Made by a program: the position numbers and the translations under genes. A DNA stretch of 64,000 bases from IMG/VR virus record IMGVR_UViG_3300021387_000452; one strand, given 5' to 3'. This document shows positions 2,533 through 29,673 of this stretch, one piece after another (positions within the stretch are counted from its first letter, which is position 1; every line of letters begins with the position of its first letter). The stretch is from a virus (Duplodnaviria; Caudoviricetes). A model generated the notes under the pieces. That model saw only the letters and a program-made list of their open reading frames with translations. It ran no database searches and had not been told where the DNA came from.

Positions 2533-2562
2533 ATCTCTAAACAGATAAACAGGTTAAACAAG

Positions 2563-2635
2563 TGCCCCAAGAAAGACTCGAACTTCCGACCGCCGCATTA
2601 CAGGTGCGATGCTCTACCAACTGAGCTATTAGGGC
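2563..2635 (-). tRNA. tRNA-Thr(UGU)
   Basis: Cloverleaf; anticodon loop CCTGTAA. Confidence 0.9.
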
Positions 2636-2638
2636 AAA

Positions 2639-2727
2639 CGAAGAGAGTAGGATTCGAACCTACGGTACGGTGTAACCCGTACGACTGAATAGCAATCAGT
2701 TGCCTTCAACCACTCGGCCATCTCTTC
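2639..2727 (-). tRNA. tRNA-Ser(GCU)
   Basis: Long variable arm; loop TTGCTAT. Confidence 0.9.
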
Positions 2728-2731
2728 ACGA

Positions 2732-2815
2732 TGTCAGCAGAGAGACTCGAACTCTCAAGCCTTTCGGCGGCAGCTTCTAAGACTGCTGCGTTTACCCAAG
2801 TTTCGCCATGCTGAC
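2732..2815 (-). tRNA. tRNA-Leu(UAG)
   Basis: Loop CTTAGAA; variable arm. Confidence 0.9.
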
Positions 2816-2820
2816 ATAAA

Positions 2821-2907
2821 TGGGCGTGGAAGGACTCGAACCTTCTTCTCCGAATGCATCTCTGCATTCCTCGCGAGAGGTGTTTTACCAAGATAAACTA
2901 CACGTCC
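2821..2907 (-). ncRNA. tRNA-like RNA without a canonical anticodon loop
   Basis: Acceptor, D and T arms present; the central arm ends in a GAATGCA-GAGA-TGCATTC tetraloop hairpin. Confidence 0.7.
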
Positions 2908-2909
2908 TA

Positions 2910-2981
2910 TTGTGAGTATTGGATTCGAACCAATTCTATGAGTGTATGAGGCTCATGTGCTAACCATTACACCAACTCACA
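2910..2981 (-). tRNA. tRNA with CAU anticodon (elongator Met or Ile2)
   Basis: Loop CTCATAC. Confidence 0.8.
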
Positions 2982-2989
2982 TTATAAAT

Positions 2990-3089
2990 CTGGCTGCTGG
3001 GATTCGAACCCAAAACCTCTGATCCCTTAAATTAATTTAAGGTGACTATCTCATCAGTGTTCTGTTATCATGTTTTAAACTACAGCCCA
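2990..3089 (-). ncRNA. tRNA-like RNA with a bulged, extended anticodon arm
   Basis: T arm TTGGG-TTCGAAT-CCCAG; stem CTGAT/ATCAG encloses a bulge plus CCTTAAA-TTAA-TTTAAGG; enlarged D loop. Confidence 0.6.
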
Positions 3090-3094
3090 TAAGA

Positions 3095-3165
3095 TGGAGA
3101 ATATCAGAATCGAACTGATGTCTATAGAATGCAAATCTATTGTTCTCCCGCTGAACTAATTCCCC
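3095..3165 (-). tRNA. tRNA-Ala(UGC)
   Basis: Loop TTTGCAT; G3:U70 pair. Confidence 0.9.
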
Positions 3166-3279
3166 ATAAAAGACGGAGGTGTTATTTAGATAGCAGTTCT
3201 ATTTCAACTACAGGGCACACACCTGAAACCTCTTTGTTGGTTAGCCTCGCCAACATTGCCCGATTTGAACGGGACTTGA

Positions 3280-3352
3280 CGGGAAATGTAGGACTCGAAC
3301 CTACGACTCCGGACTTAACAGGACCGTGTTCTACCGACTGAACTAATTTCCC
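3280..3352 (-). tRNA. tRNA-Asn(GUU)
   Basis: Loop CTGTTAA. Confidence 0.9.
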
Positions 3353-3356
3353 ATAA

Positions 3357-3429
3357 TAGCGGGAGCTGGATTCGAACCAACGATCTCTGGGTTATGGGCC
3401 CAGAATGTTAACCACTACACTATCCCGCA
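3357..3429 (-). tRNA. tRNA-fMet(CAU), initiator type
   Basis: GGG/CCC anticodon stem; 1:72 mismatch. Confidence 0.85.
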
Positions 3430-3517
3430 ATAAGATAAATAAACACCTGTTTAACGATACAGGCAATCGGGGTTATTTAGTCCTCAAACAATCGGACATG
3501 TCGTATCCCAACGGCAA

Positions 3518-3589
3518 TAGCGGATGACAGAGTCGAACTGTCTTAAAGAGTTTATAAGACTCACGTAATAACCGGTATACGAATCCGCT
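3518..3589 (-). tRNA. tRNA-Ile(UAU)
   Basis: Loop CTTATAA. Confidence 0.8.
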
Positions 3590-3594
3590 GTAAA

Positions 3595-3669
3595 TCGGAG
3601 TGGCGAGACTTGCACTCACAAACCTCCCGGACCCAAACCGGGCGCTCTACTAAATTGAGCTACACTCCG
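3595..3669 (-). tRNA. tRNA-Pro(UGG)
   Basis: Loop TTTGGGT. Confidence 0.9.
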
Positions 3670-3674
3670 ATAAA

Positions 3675-3747
3675 TACACCATGAAAGACTCGAACTTTCG
3701 ACCCACGGCTTAGAAGGCCGTTGCACTTCCAACTGTGCTAATGGTGC
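3675..3747 (-). tRNA. tRNA-Arg(UCU)
   Basis: Loop CTTCTAA. Confidence 0.9.
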
Positions 3748-3875
3748 AAATAGATATTATCATAATCTCACGATTATTAACACCCTAATAATCCACTTAG
3801 AAAAACACTAAACATACTCACTTTCATTGTTGCCAATTCCAGTGAGTTCTATATAGGTAACCAGTCTATATAGAA

Positions 3876-3959
3876 TGCTTCAACAGAGACTCGAACTCTG
3901 ACGCCACTTAAGGCAATGGCTTCTAAGACCATTATGTCTACCAATTTCATCACTGAAGC
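3876..3959 (-). tRNA. tRNA-Leu(UAG), second divergent copy
   Basis: Loop CTTAGAA; variable arm. Confidence 0.9.
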
Positions 3960-3963
3960 ATAA

Positions 3964-4036
3964 TGGAGAAGTGTAGGAATCGAACCTACGACCTACGGAT
4001 TACTCTCCGCAACTCTACCACTAAGCTAACTTCCCC
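3964..4036 (-). ncRNA. Ala-acceptor tRNA-like RNA with a 6-nt 'anticodon' loop and 8-bp acceptor stem
   Basis: GGGGAAGT/ACTTCTCC-A with G3:U; arm GCGGA-GAGTAA-TCCGT. Confidence 0.7.
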
Positions 4037-4212
4037 AAAAGGAGCGGGCCAAATTTTATTTCACAACAATACTTAACCCTAGCAGAACATGACATGAAAA
4101 TGGAAGAATGTTGATTCTCGACAACATTGATCTCATTTATATTATACATAACTTAGAAAGAGAATGCAACTAAATTATGCATAATCTTATCATCTCATTT
4201 AAAGATGATAAA

Positions 4213-4285
4213 CAGGCCACAGAGGATTCGAACCTCTATCCTCGGTTTTGGAGACCGAGATGCTGAACCATTACACCAGCAACCT
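4213..4285 (-). tRNA. tRNA-Trp(CCA)
   Basis: Loop CTCCAAA. Confidence 0.9.
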
Positions 4286-4286
4286 A

Positions 4287-4360
4287 TGGTTCCGTGAACA
4301 GGAATTGCACCTATACTGGCGGAGTCAAAGTCCGCTGTTCTACTATTAAACTATCACGAA
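4287..4360 (-). tRNA. tRNA-Gln(UUG)
   Basis: Loop CTTTGAC; encoded CCA end. Confidence 0.9.
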
Positions 4361-4364
4361 GTAA

Positions 4365-4436
4365 TTCCGGGAGCTGGAATCGAACCAACATTAACTGGGT
4401 CAGAGCCAGTCGTCCTAGCCATTAAACGATCCCGAA
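4365..4436 (-). tRNA. tRNA-Gln(CUG)
   Basis: Loop CTCTGAC. Confidence 0.9.
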
Positions 4437-4659
4437 GTAAAGGCTAAATTTTATCTCACGACAATATTTAGCCATGAGGAGCAAAAATTAGAGCAATCAG
4501 TTTGTAGTGCTGTCTTGTTCTAACATATTTAATATACATAATCAAATCAGCAATTTAACTAAATTGATATGTATTTTGACTATCCCCAGGAGCATGAGAA
4601 TTCTTGATTTACATCTACTCTCATTCGAGAACTCAGCTTTATTCCTTCACGAGATAATC

Positions 4660-5266
4660 TTATAAATCTGATGCCTCACCTTAATTGGCAATCCGGATTA
4701 TCACCCACTAGTAAATGACCTCTAGAAAGTCTCCTAGCTGTTAAAGGACTACTCGTTCGAATAGTAGGTGTTCCAAGTACAGAATTACCTATATCACTAT
4801 AGGTTGCCATAATCCTAAGCGGCCGTGTACTTAAGTCCCATACAGGAATCATGGTCTTTTTTTTGAATCTCATGTTTGAGCATTATTCAAATCACAGAAT
4901 AAGAGGCTTAGAGATTACTCTATAAATATCTTACTGTGTGCTGTTACGCCAAAGTGGAGTGCAATCCTTACCAGTTACGGGGTGATTGCCTACTTCAATC
5001 GGAGTGACCAATAACCTATATACCATTATACTTCACTCTGTCAATTTGGTATATAACCTGATCCGCCTTAATCAGCCGTTGCACTTCTCGTAATGCAGTG
5101 TTTAGTTCTGCCCGAGGTTTGCAATTCTGTAAGATTTATCGCGAATAAATCTGGAATATGTGACCTTTAAGCGTTCTACATCTTGGTAGATATAGAATCA
5201 GGATATATGCTATTGGCGATTGCCACACTCATTAAGGATGGGTGCTTCTAACCCAACCACAATAAG
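4660..5266 (-). ncRNA. Large ncRNA candidate (ROOL/GOLLD-like context) with a 23S rRNA H43/H44-like 5' segment; boundaries approximate
   Basis: ~600 nt without a credible ORF inside the tRNA operon; GGTTGGGTTAGAAGCACCCATCCTTAATGAGTG near the 5' end. Confidence 0.6.
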
Positions 5267-5272
5267 ATTTAA

Positions 5273-5360
5273 TACCAGTGGAGAGACTCGAACTCTCAAG
5301 TAACGCCATGTTACGCGCCGATTTTGAGTCGACTGCCTTTGCCGATTTGGCTACACTGGC
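5273..5360 (-). tRNA. tRNA-Leu(CAA)
   Basis: Loop CTCAAAA. Confidence 0.9.
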
Positions 5361-5364
5361 TCAA

Positions 5365-5446
5365 TGCGAGAAGTGGGAATCGAACCCACAAGCCAAATGG
5401 CGTAGCATTTTAAGTGCTATGTGTTTACCAATTTCACCATTCTCGC
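5365..5446 (-). tRNA. tRNA-Leu(UAA)
   Basis: Loop CTTAAAA. Confidence 0.9.
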
Positions 5447-5721
5447 AAAACCATAGTATGAAAGGCACGACTCTCACGTACTGCCAAGCTCCAATTGCTA
5501 CCCCATCCCGGTTTAGACAACTGGTTTGCCAAGCTCCCATACTATAGTTAGTTAACAAGTCATTTCCATTACCATACGTTAGGACTTTTTCAGGCTCTAC
5601 GTTCTGTTACTCTATTACATTCAACCGTCTTACGTATATGCACCTTGTGCACCAAATACATACAGTGGGCGATGTGTATTCTTTACCATGCAGACTAGCT
5701 CTTCGTAGCAATGACTTGTAA

Positions 5722-5799
5722 TGGAAAATGAAAGAATCGAACTTTTCATCTAACGACCCAATAAAGGGTCGGTTATTTTACCAGTTAAACTAATTTTCC
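5722..5799 (-). ncRNA. tRNA-like RNA with a lengthened anticodon stem and 6-nt loop
   Basis: GGAAAAT/ATTTTCC-A acceptor; arm CGACCC-TTTATT-GGGTCG. Confidence 0.7.
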
Positions 5800-5804
5800 A
5801 TAAA

Positions 5805-5976
5805 TGAGAAATGTAGGATTTGAACCTACTCCTTTCATGGCATCTAATATAATTCCTATAATTGTGTTAATCCTGAACTTATAGAGAAGTGACTCTCTAC
5901 TCGGGAATTGAACCCGACCAATTATAGGTATTAGTTTATAGCTTCATGAATATTCTACCAACTAAACTAATTTCAC
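5805..5976 (-). ncRNA. Double-elbow tRNA-like RNA (tRNA with a permuted tRNA body replacing the anticodon loop)
   Basis: Outer acceptor, D and T arms plus an inner T arm (5901-5917), capped acceptor-like stem (5881-5900) and D-like arm (5866-5878). Confidence 0.7.
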
Positions 5977-5980
5977 ATAA

Positions 5981-6064
5981 TGGAGAGGGGAAGATTCGAA
6001 CTTCCGAAGCCTTTCGGCGCAGAATTTACAGTCCTGACCTGTTGACCGCTTAGGTAACCTCTCC
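5981..6064 (-). tRNA. tRNA-Tyr(GUA)
   Basis: Loop CTGTAAA; variable arm. Confidence 0.9.
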
Positions 6065-6091
6065 AAGCAAATTAAATAGATATCTTTCTTT

Positions 6092-6110
6092 TATTCAGTT
6101 GTCAAAGATC
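6092..6110 (-). promoter_or_regulatory. rrn-type boxA antitermination-like site upstream of the tRNA operon
   Basis: GATCTTTGACAACTGAATA. Confidence 0.6.
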
Positions 6111-6133
6111 TTAGAACTATCTATTAGTTAGTT

Positions 6134-6385
6134 CTATTGAATCTTGCTTTTCGTAAACTGTCTATAGGCTTTCATCCAAGCTGGATTAAAACCATCAAGA
6201 ACTATCTTTGATTTAAAGTCGTTTGTCGGGACGACATCTTTATAGATATTTGAAATTGTAGAAGCATCTTCTTCAGAAAGAAGATTAAGATCAAGCCCAC
6301 CAATATAGACATCATTTTCTTTAATGACGAAGACCTTACGAGATTTCGTACCATTGGATGATGTATAGGTAAACTCTTTAATCAT
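6134..6385 (-). CDS. Hypothetical protein
   Basis: ORF with AGGAG RBS downstream of a repeated promoter cassette. Confidence 0.7.
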   Translation of the reverse strand: MIKEFTYTSSNGTKSRKVFVIKENDVYIGGLDLNLLSEEDASTISNIYKDVVPTNDFKSKIVLDGFNPAWMKAYRQFTKSKIQ

Positions 6386-24892: not shown

Positions 24893-26095
24893 TTACTCAC
24901 TAGCCTTAAAATTATACATAGGTTTTATGACTTCAACAATATCAATAGTGTCTTTCACTAATTCTATAATCTCTTCAGCCGGTTTGTACGCCATCGGAGA
25001 TTCATCCAGAGTGGATTCATTTACAGAAGTAGTAAATATACCTTCCATTGAGTGTTTAAAATCATCCATTGCAATCGAGTTCTTTGCCTGTTTACGAGAC
25101 ATTAACCGACCAGCACCGTGTGGCCCTGAACAGTTCCAGTCTTCGTTTCCTTTACCGATTCCTATAATAGAACCATCTCGCATGTTTAATGGAATGATTA
25201 CTTTCTCACCTTTATTACAACGAATAGCTCCTTTACGAATTATGTTATCTTCAAAGTCAATATAATTGTGAACAGTGTGGAACACTTCAACAGGTGTAAC
25301 TTTTAAGAATTCCAAGATTCGCTGCGCAATCTCTTCACGATTCTTGACAGCGTATTCCTGACATATCTTCATATCATGTAAATAATTATCTCTGTGAGCT
25401 CCTTCCAAGTAGCATAAATCATCTGGGATCTTTTGTGCTGAAGCAAACTTTTCTCGTAATTCACGAATAGCATCTTTGATCTCTTTGTGACGTAAAGCTT
25501 CTTTATACTCAGCAATCAACTGTTCAGTTTTAGCTTTTATCTCTTCAGACTTAACATTGCAATCTTCAATTGCCATCGCCTGATAATATCTGCAAACCTG
25601 CTGGCCTAAGTTACGAGATCCGGTGTGTATAACTAAATAAACATCACCTGATTCTGATTTGTTCAATTCTATGAAGTGATTGCCTCCGCCCAATGAACCA
25701 ATTGATGCATGCAAGTGTTCAACATTTCGCAACTCACGTCGCATAAATAATTTGTCTAAATCATCAAAGCCAATAGTATGAGTCACATCATTTGCTGACA
25801 TTCCTGACGGAATATTTTCATGGATGAATTTGTCTAATTCTGCCAATCGCTCATCAGATAAATTCAATTTGCCCATATTGACTACATACATTCCGCAGCC
25901 CACGTCGACGCCTACTAAGTTTGGAACTACTTTATCTCCAAGGTCAGCAGTAAATCCAATAACACAGCCTTTACCTGCATGAGTGTCCGGCATAATACGA
26001 ACTTTTGCGTCTCTAAAAACGTTAACTGACATCAGCTGTTTTAACTGATCATATACTTCTTGTTCTACAGTCTTTGCAAATATTTTTACACTCAT
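24893..26095 (-). CDS. rtcB: RtcB RNA 3'-phosphate/5'-OH ligase
   Basis: MPDTHAG, GVDVGCG, GGGNHFIE, HTGSR, HNY, HGAGR, DESPMAYK. Confidence 0.95.
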   Translation of the reverse strand: MSVKIFAKTVEQEVYDQLKQLMSVNVFRDAKVRIMPDTHAGKGCVIGFTADLGDKVVPNLVGVDVGCGMYVVNMGKLNLSDERLAELDKFIHENIPSGMSANDVTHTIGFDDLDKLFMRRELRNVEHLHASIGSLGGGNHFIELNKSESGDVYLVIHTGSRNLGQQVCRYYQAMAIEDCNVKSEEIKAKTEQLIAEYKEALRHKEIKDAIRELREKFASAQKIPDDLCYLEGAHRDNYLHDMKICQEYAVKNREEIAQRILEFLKVTPVEVFHTVHNYIDFEDNIIRKGAIRCNKGEKVIIPLNMRDGSIIGIGKGNEDWNCSGPHGAGRLMSRKQAKNSIAMDDFKHSMEGIFTTSVNESTLDESPMAYKPAEEIIELVKDTIDIVEVIKPMYNFKASE

Positions 26096-26312
26096 AGGAC
26101 CCTCCCAAAGCATAAGCTATTTTGTTATAGTGAAAAAACTACTGAGTCGTCTTCAACAAAAACGTCGTCTTTTTCAACAACGCCATCATCTTTTATCGCC
26201 TCGCCGTATTCAGAAAATGATAAGACTGAATAACGAACTTCAGCATCTTGATCAGCGTGTGAAAGTAATTCCATCAAATCAGCAACTCGCATTTTGTATC
26301 TCCAGTGAATTA

Positions 26313-28250: not shown

Positions 28251-29420
28251 TTATCGGTGATATTTAAGAAGAAAATTTGGAGATACGCATTTGAAGTTCT
28301 GCTGACCATCTTGTGAATAGAAAACAAACCCTTCAATATCGCCATCATCGATTGCAGATTTACATGAATCTACGTAATCAACAATTTCTTCTACTGATTT
28401 TGGAATTTTATAATCATAGTCATAGACATGAACGTGTGGTAGATCTCGATCATCACAAACCTTAATCATTTCTTTAATCGGTAATCGTTTACCATCAAAC
28501 CAAATATGAAATACCACAAAGTCGTGTTTATTGTTATTCAATGAGTAATTACGTTTTTGTACTTTGTCACCGTAAGTCTCACCTTGAATTGCAACAGTCT
28601 TTAAACCATGTACAATTTTTAGAGACTTAAGCAGTTCTTTCATATTGTATTTAGCACCTGATTCAGCCCAGATATTATTTTTGAAATAGTTTCCGCCATC
28701 TGAGTCTTTCTCAGGATTCTTAATTACATTATGTGAACCAACTAAATAATTATCCTTCTCATCAAGAATAAATGATGTAGATGCACCGTCAACTTTCTCT
28801 GTAATAATATATGTATCGTCTGAACCTAGCAATTGTGGAAGATTCTGAATGCGCTCAGAGCCAGTTTTCGGCAACCACTCCGGCCACTTACATTTTGCCT
28901 TGTCCTTTTTATGAACAAAGATCTTTGAGAGTAGCCAACGAGCAAATCTGAACTTCATTGCAAATCTAATAATAGAGCTATTAAAGAATTTTTTATGACG
29001 ATCCATTGCACGTTGAAAATCATTTACTTTTTGTTTTGGCTGATTCTCACATACTGGCTCAGGATCATACTTCTCTACGTGAAGTTTATCAGTAACAAAG
29101 TCACCTTCTTTGCAGCCTTTCAGTTCTGGGAAATCAGACAATGGTAAGATTAGTCCCTGACTAACAGTCTTACACATCTTCTGCGTTAAAACGCGATACT
29201 TACGTTTTTCCATAAATGAAAAACGCTCGTCATTAGAAGGCAGAAGAGAGTCAATTTCAAAATAAACTACAAGGTCACCAACTTTAATTTCTTTTGGTGC
29301 AACACACCACCACCCAAGAACTTTACAGCTGTGTACACGATCATATCCATCAAGGTCTTTTGCCTCAGCTACTTTAACAATGTAAGCAAGTTCGCGTTCA
29401 TTAGTTTTAGGGTTTAACAT
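28251..29420 (-). CDS. ATP-dependent RNA ligase, Rnl2/DRB0094 family
   Basis: N-terminal VVYFEIDS..SQGL domain; TEKVDG motif I, QGE, EGFV, FKCVS. Confidence 0.9.
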   Translation of the reverse strand: MLNPKTNERELAYIVKVAEAKDLDGYDRVHSCKVLGWWCVAPKEIKVGDLVVYFEIDSLLPSNDERFSFMEKRKYRVLTQKMCKTVSQGLILPLSDFPELKGCKEGDFVTDKLHVEKYDPEPVCENQPKQKVNDFQRAMDRHKKFFNSSIIRFAMKFRFARWLLSKIFVHKKDKAKCKWPEWLPKTGSERIQNLPQLLGSDDTYIITEKVDGASTSFILDEKDNYLVGSHNVIKNPEKDSDGGNYFKNNIWAESGAKYNMKELLKSLKIVHGLKTVAIQGETYGDKVQKRNYSLNNNKHDFVVFHIWFDGKRLPIKEMIKVCDDRDLPHVHVYDYDYKIPKSVEEIVDYVDSCKSAIDDGDIEGFVFYSQDGQQNFKCVSPNFLLKYHR

Positions 29421-29673
29421 GTTTAATTCTCCTTTACTGAAGTCCGTCTTCAAAGTTACAGATACTAACGTTTATTTCTGTTGCCAAATCTTCTACCGCT
29501 TTTCTAGCAATTCGTAATTTATCGTAAAGACCATCACTAATATAATGTGAACTAATAGCACAATTCAATCTTAATAATGAAGACAATAAATCAGAACATA
29601 ATCTCTTTGAATCCATTAAACAAGCTATCTCGTAAGCATCTTTAATTTGCTTGTTCTGCATATTACTAATCTC

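What the first reader, a model, noticed from the sequence alone, without database searches (positions are those of the whole stretch)
2821..5799. Family of tRNA mimics with absent or distorted anticodons interleaved with true tRNAs
Four more genes (2821-2907, 2990-3089, 3964-4036, 5722-5799) keep acceptor, D and T arms but distort the anticodon arm: a GAGA tetraloop cap, a bulge plus AT-rich hairpin, or 6-nt loops. Three of them and the dumbbell begin the D arm with TAGTTTA. 3964-4036 retains the Ala identity G3:U and so may be chargeable but unable to decode normally. Defects concentrated in one arm, with pairing kept, argue against random decay. Inference: decoys against anticodon nucleases or tRNA-modifying toxins, aminoacyl donors, or uncharged-tRNA mimics that modulate stringent/T-box responses.
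Basis: partly seen in the sequence, partly recalled or inferred. Interest (0 to 1): 0.7.

Follow-up and report, generated by a model that had tools for sequence, protein, structure and literature searches.

The report
Anticodon-less tRNA look-alikes in phage
A large gut/rumen-type phage carries four tRNA-shaped genes among its real tRNA genes that cannot read codons; three of them are kept by related phages, so they are probably working small RNAs of unknown job, not dead tRNA genes.

Summary
All four genes are real, at the stated coordinates, on the minus strand inside a tight array of 17 ordinary tRNA genes (2562-6065). ARAGORN calls three "tRNA-???"; Rfam's tRNA model hits all four (41, 26, 52 and 45 bits).

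- **E1 (2821-2907):** 9 distinct sequences in related phages. The fold is 96% paired, with six pairs changed on both sides. The anticodon arm is replaced by an invariant CUCGCGAG mini-hairpin plus a covarying 7-bp, mostly GNRA-capped helix.
- **E4 (5722-5799):** 6 distinct sequences, 98% paired. It derives from a second tRNA-Asn whose anticodon stem was lengthened. The loop varies in sequence and length.
- **E2 (2989-3089):** 4 sequences. The inserted arm is nearly invariant, but covariation is not significant.
- **E3 (3964-4036):** found only here, and the syntenic copy in a close relative is broken. Its "Ala G3:U70" holds only under one of two possible end readings; the other is His-like (G-1:C73).

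So E1, E4 and probably E2 are selected, non-decoding tRNA-framed RNAs, and E3 is undecided. Their function is not shown. My best guess is tRNA-body mimics that engage tRNA-binding host factors. The phage also encodes RtcB and an RNA ligase. This scan has noted similar RNAs in other phages.

The parts
2562..6065 (-). tRNA gene array that holds the four elements (17 ordinary tRNAs, 2-8 nt spacers around the elements, no encoded CCA)
   Evidence: ARAGORN; Rfam; sequence
2821..2907 (-). E1: 87-nt tRNA-framed RNA with acceptor, D and T arms intact and the anticodon arm replaced
   Evidence: ARAGORN 'tRNA-???'; RF00005 41.4 bits; 9 distinct homologues, 96.3% of cells paired, 6 pairs changed on both sides; own model R1 gives 95-110 bits for members against 47 or less for other tRNAs
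2870..2879 (-). E1 mini-hairpin CUC-UCGC-GAG; the word CUCGCGAG is invariant in all homologues
   Evidence: Alignment; no covariation because it never varies; the word occurs once in the 64-kb window
2851..2869 (-). E1 7-bp helix capped by GAGA (GNRA in most relatives)
   Evidence: Four of seven pairs change on both sides with pairing kept, including G-C to C-G at the closing pair
2989..3089 (-). E2: 101-nt tRNA-framed RNA with a 39-nt arm in place of the 17-nt anticodon arm
   Evidence: RF00005 26.3 bits, below the gathering score; 4 homologues at 105-128 bits with model R3; 95.4% paired but only one double change, not significant
3019..3057 (-). E2 arm: 5-bp stem, one-sided 10-nt loop GAGAUAGUCA, AU-rich 7-bp hairpin with UUAA loop
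   Evidence: Only 4 of about 20 substitutions among the four copies fall in this 39-nt arm, and none breaks a pair
3964..4036 (-). E3: 73-nt tRNA-like gene with an 8-bp acceptor helix and a 6-nt loop on a 5-bp stem
   Evidence: ARAGORN 'tRNA-???'; RF00005 51.8 bits with G4036 left outside as -1; fold z-score -4.6; no homologue found
4000..4005 (-). E3 6-nt loop GAGUAA (no U33)
   Evidence: Sequence; Rfam alignment shows 6 instead of 7 loop positions
5722..5799 (-). E4: 78-nt tRNA-framed RNA derived from a tRNA-Asn(GUU) lineage
   Evidence: ARAGORN 'tRNA-???'; RF00005 44.8 bits; 6 distinct homologues, 98.3% paired, 4 pairs changed on both sides; model R2 gives 91-104 bits for members against 65 or less for real tRNAs, the best of which are Asn2 and one tRNA-Lys(UUU) of the unrelated contig L016
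5752..5773 (-). E4 lengthened arm: 22 nt instead of 17, with an invariant C.U mismatch at 28:42, 2-3 extra pairs, and a loop that varies in sequence and length among relatives

Best explanation
E1, E4 and probably E2 are three families of tRNA-derived small RNAs that no longer decode. They are transcribed within the tRNA array. Because they keep the acceptor/T-arm minihelix and, in E1 and E4, the D-loop GG elbow, they would be cut out by RNase P and 3' processing and given CCA like their neighbours (inferred). Selection keeps the tRNA 'upper half' and keeps the lower arm as a closed, stable helix without a usable anticodon. The most likely use is as tRNA-body mimics. They would occupy proteins that recognise tRNA by its body or end, for example host tRNA-directed defence enzymes, without being translated or cut in an anticodon loop. 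E3 is a lineage-specific aberrant tRNA, either a recent variant or a dying gene. Shown: existence, fold, conservation, covariation, and the origin of E4 from tRNA-Asn. Inferred: processing, CCA addition, any binding partner, and any anti-defence effect.
For: - **E1 conservation.** It is found in 10 contigs (9 distinct sequences) whose flanking methylase is 64-96% identical. 96.3% of cells are paired and 6 pairs change on both sides. Slid controls pair at 41-50%.
- **E4 conservation.** It is found in 6 distinct sequences. 98.3% of cells are paired and 4 pairs change on both sides.
- **Family separation.** Family-specific models separate members from all real tRNAs by more than 25 bits.
- **Rate of change.** E1 and E4 are 76-97% identical across relatives. 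Real tRNAs of the same array are 65-100%. Two spacers (3749-3874, 5448-5720) have no detectable homologue.
- **Retention under tRNA loss.** One relative (L008-L011) kept only tRNA-Arg as an ordinary tRNA, yet retains an intact E4.
- **The lower arm does not decode.** The E4 loop differs in sequence and length among relatives while its stem covaries. E1 has an invariant 8-nt word and no 7-nt loop.
- **E2.** Its inserted arm is nearly invariant in four phages.
- **Context.** The window encodes RtcB and an RNA ligase, and a relative encodes a Thg1-like enzyme. These are enzymes of tRNA repair.
- **Recurrence.** Short-armed or sealed tRNA look-alikes recur in relatives and in another phage (L063, L016).
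Against: - There are no expression, processing, charging or binding data.
- Known anticodon nucleases mainly read the anticodon loop, which these RNAs lack, so a decoy would have to work through body contacts.
- The families are patchy: E4 is absent from a 94%-complete relative, and E1 is absent from several.
- E2 covariation is not significant, and one E2 copy has a T-stem mismatch.
- E3 has no support from relatives.
- The E1 and E2 arms are more conserved in sequence than a mere 'closed helix' would need. This points to a specific job for the arm itself (the payload rival).
Confidence: 0.45

Rival explanations
1. tRNA-scaffolded payload RNAs. The tRNA frame only supplies processing and stability. 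The replaced arm is the working part: E1's CUCGCGAG plus capped helix, and E2's GAGAUAGUCA loop plus AU hairpin. It would bind a specific protein or nucleic acid.
For: The E2 arm is the most conserved part of the gene: 4 of about 20 substitutions fall in it, and none is in the internal loop or basal stem. CUCGCGAG and the GGAGAA linker of E1 are invariant or nearly so across 9 sequences. A 70-nt relative in G005 keeps a CUC-NNNN-GAG mini-hairpin.
Against: The E4 loop is not conserved at all. The E1 long helix varies freely in sequence. No target or partner was identified, and CUCGCGAG occurs nowhere else in the window.
Confidence: 0.22
2. Decaying tRNA pseudogenes, left over from the rapid gain and loss of tRNA genes in this phage group.
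For: The array is mosaic and turns over fast. The closest relative has tRNA-Lys(CUU) and tRNA-Pro where the window has E2. Relatives carry clearly degenerate Pro-like and Leu-like copies. E3 has no homologue, and its syntenic counterpart in L005 has lost the T stem.
Against: E1 and E4 keep pairing through compensatory changes and evolve no faster than real tRNAs. The E2 insert is conserved. E3 itself folds very well (z -4.6), and its extra acceptor pair needs two matched insertions relative to the window's tRNA-Ala.
Confidence: 0.12
3. Aminoacylated but non-decoding tRNAs that donate amino acids to a non-ribosomal reaction, or that act like the tRNA-like domain of tmRNA.
For: Synthetases for Ala, His, Ser and Leu do not need the anticodon (established knowledge). 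E3 carries either G3:U70 with A73, or G-1:C73. Four E1 copies have G3.U70.
Against: In E1 the 3:70 pair is A.C, A-U, G-C or G.U in different phages. In E4 the 1:72 pair and the discriminator change in one lineage. No conserved identity set exists. No aminoacyl-transferase gene was seen near the array.
Confidence: 0.08
4. Unusual decoders: quadruplet or doublet readers, or suppressors, using 8-nt or 6-nt loops.
For: ARAGORN reports 4-nt 'anticodons' for E3 and E4. The E4 loop region can open to 8 nt.
Against: The E4 loop sequence is different in almost every relative, so no codon is conserved. E1 and E2 have no loop of anticodon type. Window ORFs read normally under code 11.
Confidence: 0.04
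5. Processing punctuation. The tRNA shapes only serve as RNase P/Z cutting sites that organise maturation of the long tRNA transcript.
For: They sit in register with real tRNAs, with 2-8 nt spacers.
Against: Real tRNAs on both sides already provide such sites. This does not explain the invariant arm motifs, or retention of E4 where the neighbouring tRNAs were lost.
Confidence: 0.07

Closest known systems
Small stable RNAs of the phage T4 tRNA cluster (species 1 and 2, rnaC/rnaD). Recalled from memory; not compared by sequence here.
   Same: Non-decoding small RNAs encoded inside a phage tRNA array, co-transcribed and matured with the tRNAs, with tRNA-like terminal helices. Their function is still unknown.
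   Different: No sequence relationship was tested. E1, E2 and E4 keep a full cloverleaf frame with only the anticodon arm rebuilt, and E4 can be traced to a specific tRNA (Asn).
Phage tRNAs with altered anticodon loops that escape host anticodon nucleases (PMC10264068; PARIS, PMC11464382; retron, PMC11555353)
   Same: Phage-encoded tRNA genes whose anticodon arm departs from the host's, in genomes that also carry tRNA repair enzymes.
   Different: Those tRNAs still decode and replace depleted host tRNAs. The RNAs here have no usable anticodon, so they cannot rescue translation.
Non-canonical cloverleaf tRNAs (8/4, 9/3 'allo-tRNAs'; tRNA-His and tRNA-Ser with 8/4 in phage clusters; PMC5389517)
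   Same: E3 has an 8-bp acceptor helix and sits in a phage tRNA cluster. Some allo-tRNAs carry G3:U70.
   Different: E3 has 8+5 pairs, not 8+4. It has no long variable arm, and it has a 6-nt loop, whereas allo-tRNAs decode.
Bacterial and phage Y-RNA-like YrlA (Rfam RF02553) and the tmRNA tRNA-like domain
   Same: tRNA mimicry without decoding.
   Different: Rfam gives only sub-threshold YrlA hits (17-29 bits against a gathering score of 69) that overlap ordinary tRNAs. These RNAs have open tRNA-type ends, are not permuted, and have no Ro-binding stem or mRNA-like part.

Membership tests
Decoding tRNA (Rfam RF00005) | Score at or above the family's gathering score (29 bits) | tested here: met
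   E1 41.4, E3 51.8 and E4 44.8 bits. E2 scores 26.3 bits and does not reach it.
Decoding tRNA (Rfam RF00005) | 5-bp anticodon stem with a 7-nt loop, U33, and a purine at 37 | tested here: not met
   E1: 3-bp stem with a 4-nt loop, plus a separate capped helix. E2: 29 nt inside the stem. E3: 6-nt loop GAGUAA. E4: 22-nt arm with a 5-8 nt loop that is not conserved.
Decoding tRNA (Rfam RF00005) | 7-bp acceptor, D arm with G18G19, T arm with a TPsiC-type loop | tested here: met
   Met for E1 and E4. E3 has 8 acceptor pairs. E2 has a G.A mismatch at pair 2, and its D loop lacks GG in this window.
tRNA pseudogene (neutral decay) | Substitutions hit stems and loops alike; no compensatory change; faster divergence than real tRNAs | tested here: not met
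   Not met for E1 and E4. Inconclusive for E2. E3 could not be tested, because it has no intact homologue.
T4-type stable RNAs of tRNA clusters | Encoded within a phage tRNA array, non-decoding, matured with the tRNAs | tested here: inconclusive
   Location and lack of an anticodon are shown. Maturation is not testable with these tools, and no sequence comparison with T4 was made.
YrlA / Y RNA-like (RF02553) | Rfam gathering score of 69 bits; permuted tRNA-like head on a long Ro-binding stem | tested here: not met
   Best hits are 16.6-28.6 bits and overlap ordinary tRNAs.
8/4 or 9/3 allo-tRNA (PMC5389517) | 12-bp acceptor/T branch split 8/4 or 9/3, a long variable arm, and a working anticodon | tested here: not met
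   E3 is 8+5, has a 5-nt variable loop, and has a 6-nt anticodon loop.
Quadruplet-decoding (frameshift suppressor) tRNA | 8-nt anticodon loop with a conserved 4-nt anticodon | tested here: not met
   The E4 loop region reads differently in the window, L031, L005, G004 and L006.
AlaRS substrate (G3:U70 rule) | G3:U70 counted from the mature 5' end, with A73 | tested here: inconclusive
   E3 meets it only if G4036 is +1. Rfam aligns G4036 as -1 pairing with C73, which is tRNA-His-like. Charging is not testable here.

The most novel reading that the evidence does not exclude
E1, E2 and E4 are a phage counter-defence of a new kind. They would be uncleavable tRNA-body mimics, with sealed or lengthened anticodon arms, that bind and block host tRNA-directed immune enzymes. 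Those could be anticodon nucleases, Schlafen-type tRNases, or toxins that modify the tRNA 3' end. The mimics would complement the phage's own tRNAs and its RtcB and ligase repair enzymes.
Probability: 0.2. Interest if true: 0.85.

Novelty: new variant of a known kind. Interest (0 to 1): 0.55.

Why it matters
Phage tRNA arrays are usually read as codon supplements or as replacements for tRNAs destroyed by host defences. Here three RNA families keep a tRNA's shape under selection while having lost the ability to decode. That means some other tRNA-recognising process matters to the phage. If the partner is a host defence enzyme, these would be RNA inhibitors of bacterial immunity. If it is something else, such as processing, charging or a specific payload, they would help explain the long-unexplained small RNAs of phage tRNA clusters. 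On the practical side, annotation pipelines label them 'tRNA-Undet', 'pseudo', or even tRNA-Arg, Ser or Thr, which inflates or distorts phage tRNA inventories.

Tried and rejected
- **Relatives in GenBank phages.** Nucleotide searches (near and distant) matched only single ordinary tRNAs. An 862-aa window protein found nothing, and RtcB matched at 51% identity or less.
- **IMG/VR scans.** The window's methylase alone found nothing. The 17-mer from E4 and the 15-mer from E3 gave chance hits; none of the 17 E3 hits lies in a tRNA. The E2 pattern, the strict E1 pattern and a looser E3 pattern gave no hits.
- **GTDB genomes.** A scan with the methylase profile gave only distant, unrelated loci.
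- **No whole genome** is held for this window.
- **E2 as an intron-bearing tRNA: rejected.** The insert is 29 nt, far below group I size, and no bulge-helix-bulge is present. The apparent split of E2 in L028 was only shared flanks of tRNA-Ala and tRNA-Met.
- **Alternative single long-arm fold of E1** (from RNAfold of the arm alone): rejected. The 39:57 pair covaries G-C to C-G, and the alternative breaks in L006, L022 and L032.
- **E1 as tRNA-Arg(GCG) or tRNA-Ser(CGA), and one E4 as tRNA-Thr(AGU),** as ARAGORN calls them in relatives: rejected. The required anticodon stems do not pair.
- **A 4-bp version of the E1 mini-stem:** not supported. The 28:39 pair is unpaired in 5 of 9 sequences.
- **Promoter and terminator scan** of the array was uninformative.
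- **Literature searches** found no description of these families.
Full report
**Setting**

The window is AT-rich (34-37% GC) and almost wholly coded on the minus strand. It reads as part of a large phage. It encodes:
- ThyX, dCMP deaminase and SHMT;
- two DNA methylases and an SLT lysozyme domain;
- an amidoligase;
- an RtcB RNA ligase (24893-26113) and a second RNA ligase (28251-29453).

No close relative exists among GenBank phages, and no whole genome is held for this window.

Between 2562 and 6065, ARAGORN finds 20 tRNA-type genes on the minus strand. Seventeen are ordinary and three are 'tRNA-???'. None encodes CCA.

**The observation**

| Element | Coordinates | RF00005 bits | Status against gathering score (29) |
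|---|---|---|---|
| E1 | 2821-2907 | 41.4 | above |
| E2 | 2989-3089 | 26.3 | below |
| E3 | 3965-4035 | 51.8 | above |
| E4 | 5722-5799 | 44.8 | above |

The elements sit in register with real tRNAs, separated by 2-8 nt.
- E2 also has a G.A mismatch at acceptor pair 2, and in this window its D loop lacks GG.
- E3 has an 8-bp acceptor helix.

The word TAGTTTA at the start of the D arm is shared by E1, E2, E4 and the neighbouring two-headed element. The ordinary tRNA-Gln(UUG) has it as well.

**Finding relatives**

The EcoRI-like methylase just downstream of the array (1630-2532) has metagenomic homologues at 55-95% identity. Fetching their contigs gave about two dozen related arrays. An IMG/VR scan for an E1 motif added more.

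The arrays are mosaic and turn over fast. The closest relative (L034, methylase 95%) has tRNA-Lys(CUU) and tRNA-Pro where the window has E2. Some relatives have group I introns or endonuclease ORFs inside the array.

**E1**

- **Members.** Nine distinct sequences were found in ten contigs whose methylase is 64-96% identical to the window's.
- **Pairing.** On the cloverleaf frame plus arm, 96.3% of cells are standard pairs. Six pairs change on both sides. Sliding the partner columns gives 41-50%.
- **Helix.** RNAalifold, run independently, extends the long helix to 7 bp. Its closing pair switches G-C to C-G in two lineages. Caps are GAGA, GUGA, GAAA and GUAA in most copies.
- **Invariant parts.** The word CUCGCGAG, the D arm, and a GGAGAA-type linker are invariant or nearly so. 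The mini-stem CUC/GAG never varies, so covariation says nothing about it. A fourth pair is refuted.
- **Model separation.** A model built on the family scores members at 95-110 bits and everything else at 47 bits or less.
- **Acceptor identity.** The 3:70 pair is A.C, A-U, G-C or G.U in different phages. No aminoacylation identity is conserved.

**E4**

- **Members.** Six distinct sequences were found. 98.3% of cells are paired and four pairs change on both sides.
- **Origin.** Among relatives, the nearest real tRNA is a second tRNA-Asn(GUU) ('Asn2'), which scores 57-65 bits with the E4 model against 91-104 for members; a tRNA-Lys(UUU) of the unrelated contig L016 scores in the same range (63.7). 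The alignment shows the same acceptor, D and T arms.
- **What changed.** The T-A pair at 28:42 has become an invariant C.U mismatch. The stem has 2-3 extra pairs. The arm is 21-22 nt instead of 17.
- **Loop.** It differs in sequence and length in almost every lineage, so no codon reading is conserved.
- **Distribution.** In the arrays that are complete or nearly so, E4 and Asn2 do not co-occur. In L031 E4 directly follows tRNA-Tyr, and in L067 Asn2 is the next tRNA gene after tRNA-Tyr, 343 nt downstream.
- **Retention.** The relative L008-L011 has lost nearly all ordinary tRNAs, keeping tRNA-Arg plus degenerate Pro-like and Leu-like copies. It keeps an intact E4.

**E2**

- **Members.** Four copies were found: the window, L026, the 252-kb IMG/VR contig behind L032, and L067.
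- **Pairing.** The structure is 95.4% paired. There is only one double change (A-U to G-C in the AU hairpin), which is not significant. One copy has an A.C mismatch in the T stem.
- **Where changes fall.** Of about 20 substitutions, four lie in the 39-nt inserted arm. None lies in its basal stem or in the 10-nt loop GAGAUAGUCA. So the insert is at least as constrained as the frame.
- **Nearest non-members.** The best non-family hits of the E2 model are E1 genes.

**E3**

- **No intact homologue.** None was found in any fetched array or in IMG/VR.
- **Composition.** Its anticodon stem and T arm resemble relatives' tRNA-Lys(CUU), at 75% identity. Its acceptor equals the window's tRNA-Ala acceptor with one extra G:C pair. 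The window has no tRNA-Lys or tRNA-His.
- **Two end readings.** Rfam aligns it with G4036 as -1 opposite C73, which is the tRNA-His architecture. Counted from G4036, it shows G3:U70 with A73. Which holds depends on where RNase P cuts.
- **Relative's copy.** The syntenic element in L005 keeps the 5' third and the acceptor G.U, but has lost the T stem.
- **Fold.** E3 folds very stably (z -4.6).
- **Status.** I leave it undecided between a young variant and a dying gene.

**Rate check**

Across relatives, E1 (76-97%) and E4 (76-91%) are as conserved as real tRNAs of the same array (65-100%). Two spacers have no detectable homologue anywhere. The array is rearranged between phages, so this is only a rough control.

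**How it most likely works**

Shown:
- Three families keep the tRNA frame under selection.
- They have a closed, non-decoding lower arm.

Inferred:
- They are excised and CCA-tailed like tRNAs.
- They act through proteins that recognise the tRNA body or its end.

The repair enzymes in the genome and the published arms race over tRNA cleavage (PMC10264068, PMC11464382, PMC11555353, PMC13056530) make a role against tRNA-directed defence the most attractive reading. But nothing here tests it, and known anticodon nucleases mainly read the loop that these RNAs lack.

The strong sequence conservation of the E1 and E2 arms keeps the 'tRNA-scaffolded payload' reading alive. Aminoacyl-donor, odd-decoder and pure-punctuation readings are each weakened by specific results. 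These are listed under the rival explanations.

**Comparison with the known**

The closest precedent I know is the pair of small stable RNAs in the T4 tRNA cluster. That is recalled from memory and was not compared by sequence. The elements are not YrlA, tmRNA or allo-tRNAs by the tests listed. Rfam holds no family for them other than tRNA.

A survey of candidate structured RNAs in viruses mentions tRNA-like candidates only in general terms (PMC10690425).

Earlier notes of this scan describe sealed or anticodon-less tRNA look-alikes in several other phages, and one more elsewhere in this genome. I did not test those, and they are not independent evidence.

I also saw two further examples in passing:
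- a 70-nt copy with a CUC-NNNN-GAG mini-arm in a relative (L063);
- a class-II-like copy with a sealed arm in another IMG/VR phage (L016).

**Verdict**

It probably holds for E2 and is open for E3. The function is unknown. Interest is moderate. These are undescribed families of a recurring but unexplained kind of phage RNA.

Noticed in passing
window 3167-3277 and 3431-3517 (minus strand): Two non-tRNA spacers of the array are conserved in relatives: 81-87% for the first, and 85-100% for the second. The second contains a terminator-like hairpin followed by a T run (3444-3465). They may be transcription signals or further small RNAs.
   Followed up: partly
window 24893-26113, 28251-29453; L003:1044-1787: The phage encodes RtcB and a second RNA ligase. 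A relative encodes a Thg1-like enzyme. Together these are a tRNA repair toolkit in the same genomes as the tRNA look-alikes.
   Followed up: partly
L005:2701-2915; L010:3089-3304; L028:4424-4730 and 4966-6336: Rfam finds group I introns inside relatives' tRNA arrays. L028 appears to hold one tRNA gene split by about 240 nt, and another split by about 1.3 kb containing a 385-aa ORF.
   Followed up: partly
L008:8533-9398 (same in L009-L011): This relative's array is reduced to E4, tRNA-Arg(UCU), a degenerate Pro-like copy, a group I intron, and a tRNA-Leu-like gene with an 8-nt loop.
   Followed up: partly
L063:79-148 (minus; IMG/VR contig G005:1178-1247): A 70-nt tRNA-shaped gene whose anticodon arm is only CUC-CGUC-GAG. 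It looks like E1 without the long helix.
   Followed up: no
L016:6461-6553: Another IMG/VR phage has a 93-nt class-II-like tRNA gene whose anticodon arm is a 6-bp helix with a 4-nt cap (ARAGORN 'tRNA-???').
   Followed up: no
window 2562-6065: The window's array has no tRNA-Lys or tRNA-His, although close relatives carry tRNA-Lys(UUU) and tRNA-Lys(CUU). E2 occupies the slot where the closest relative has Lys(CUU) and Pro.
   Followed up: partly
window 4866-4915; L005:1090-1139: Sub-threshold matches to the abiF RNA motif (25.9 and 27.4 bits; gathering score 37) lie in the long non-coding stretch 4437-5272. Part of that stretch is 77% identical in two IMG/VR relatives.
   Followed up: no
L006:3879-3946; L010:2991-3060; L006:5054-5124 and L028:4733-4803: There are further irregular tRNA-type genes in relatives. 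Some are Pro-derived copies with aberrant anticodon arms. One is a tRNA-Met(CAU)-like gene with a D loop lacking GG, which ARAGORN misses but Rfam scores at 48-49 bits.
   Followed up: no
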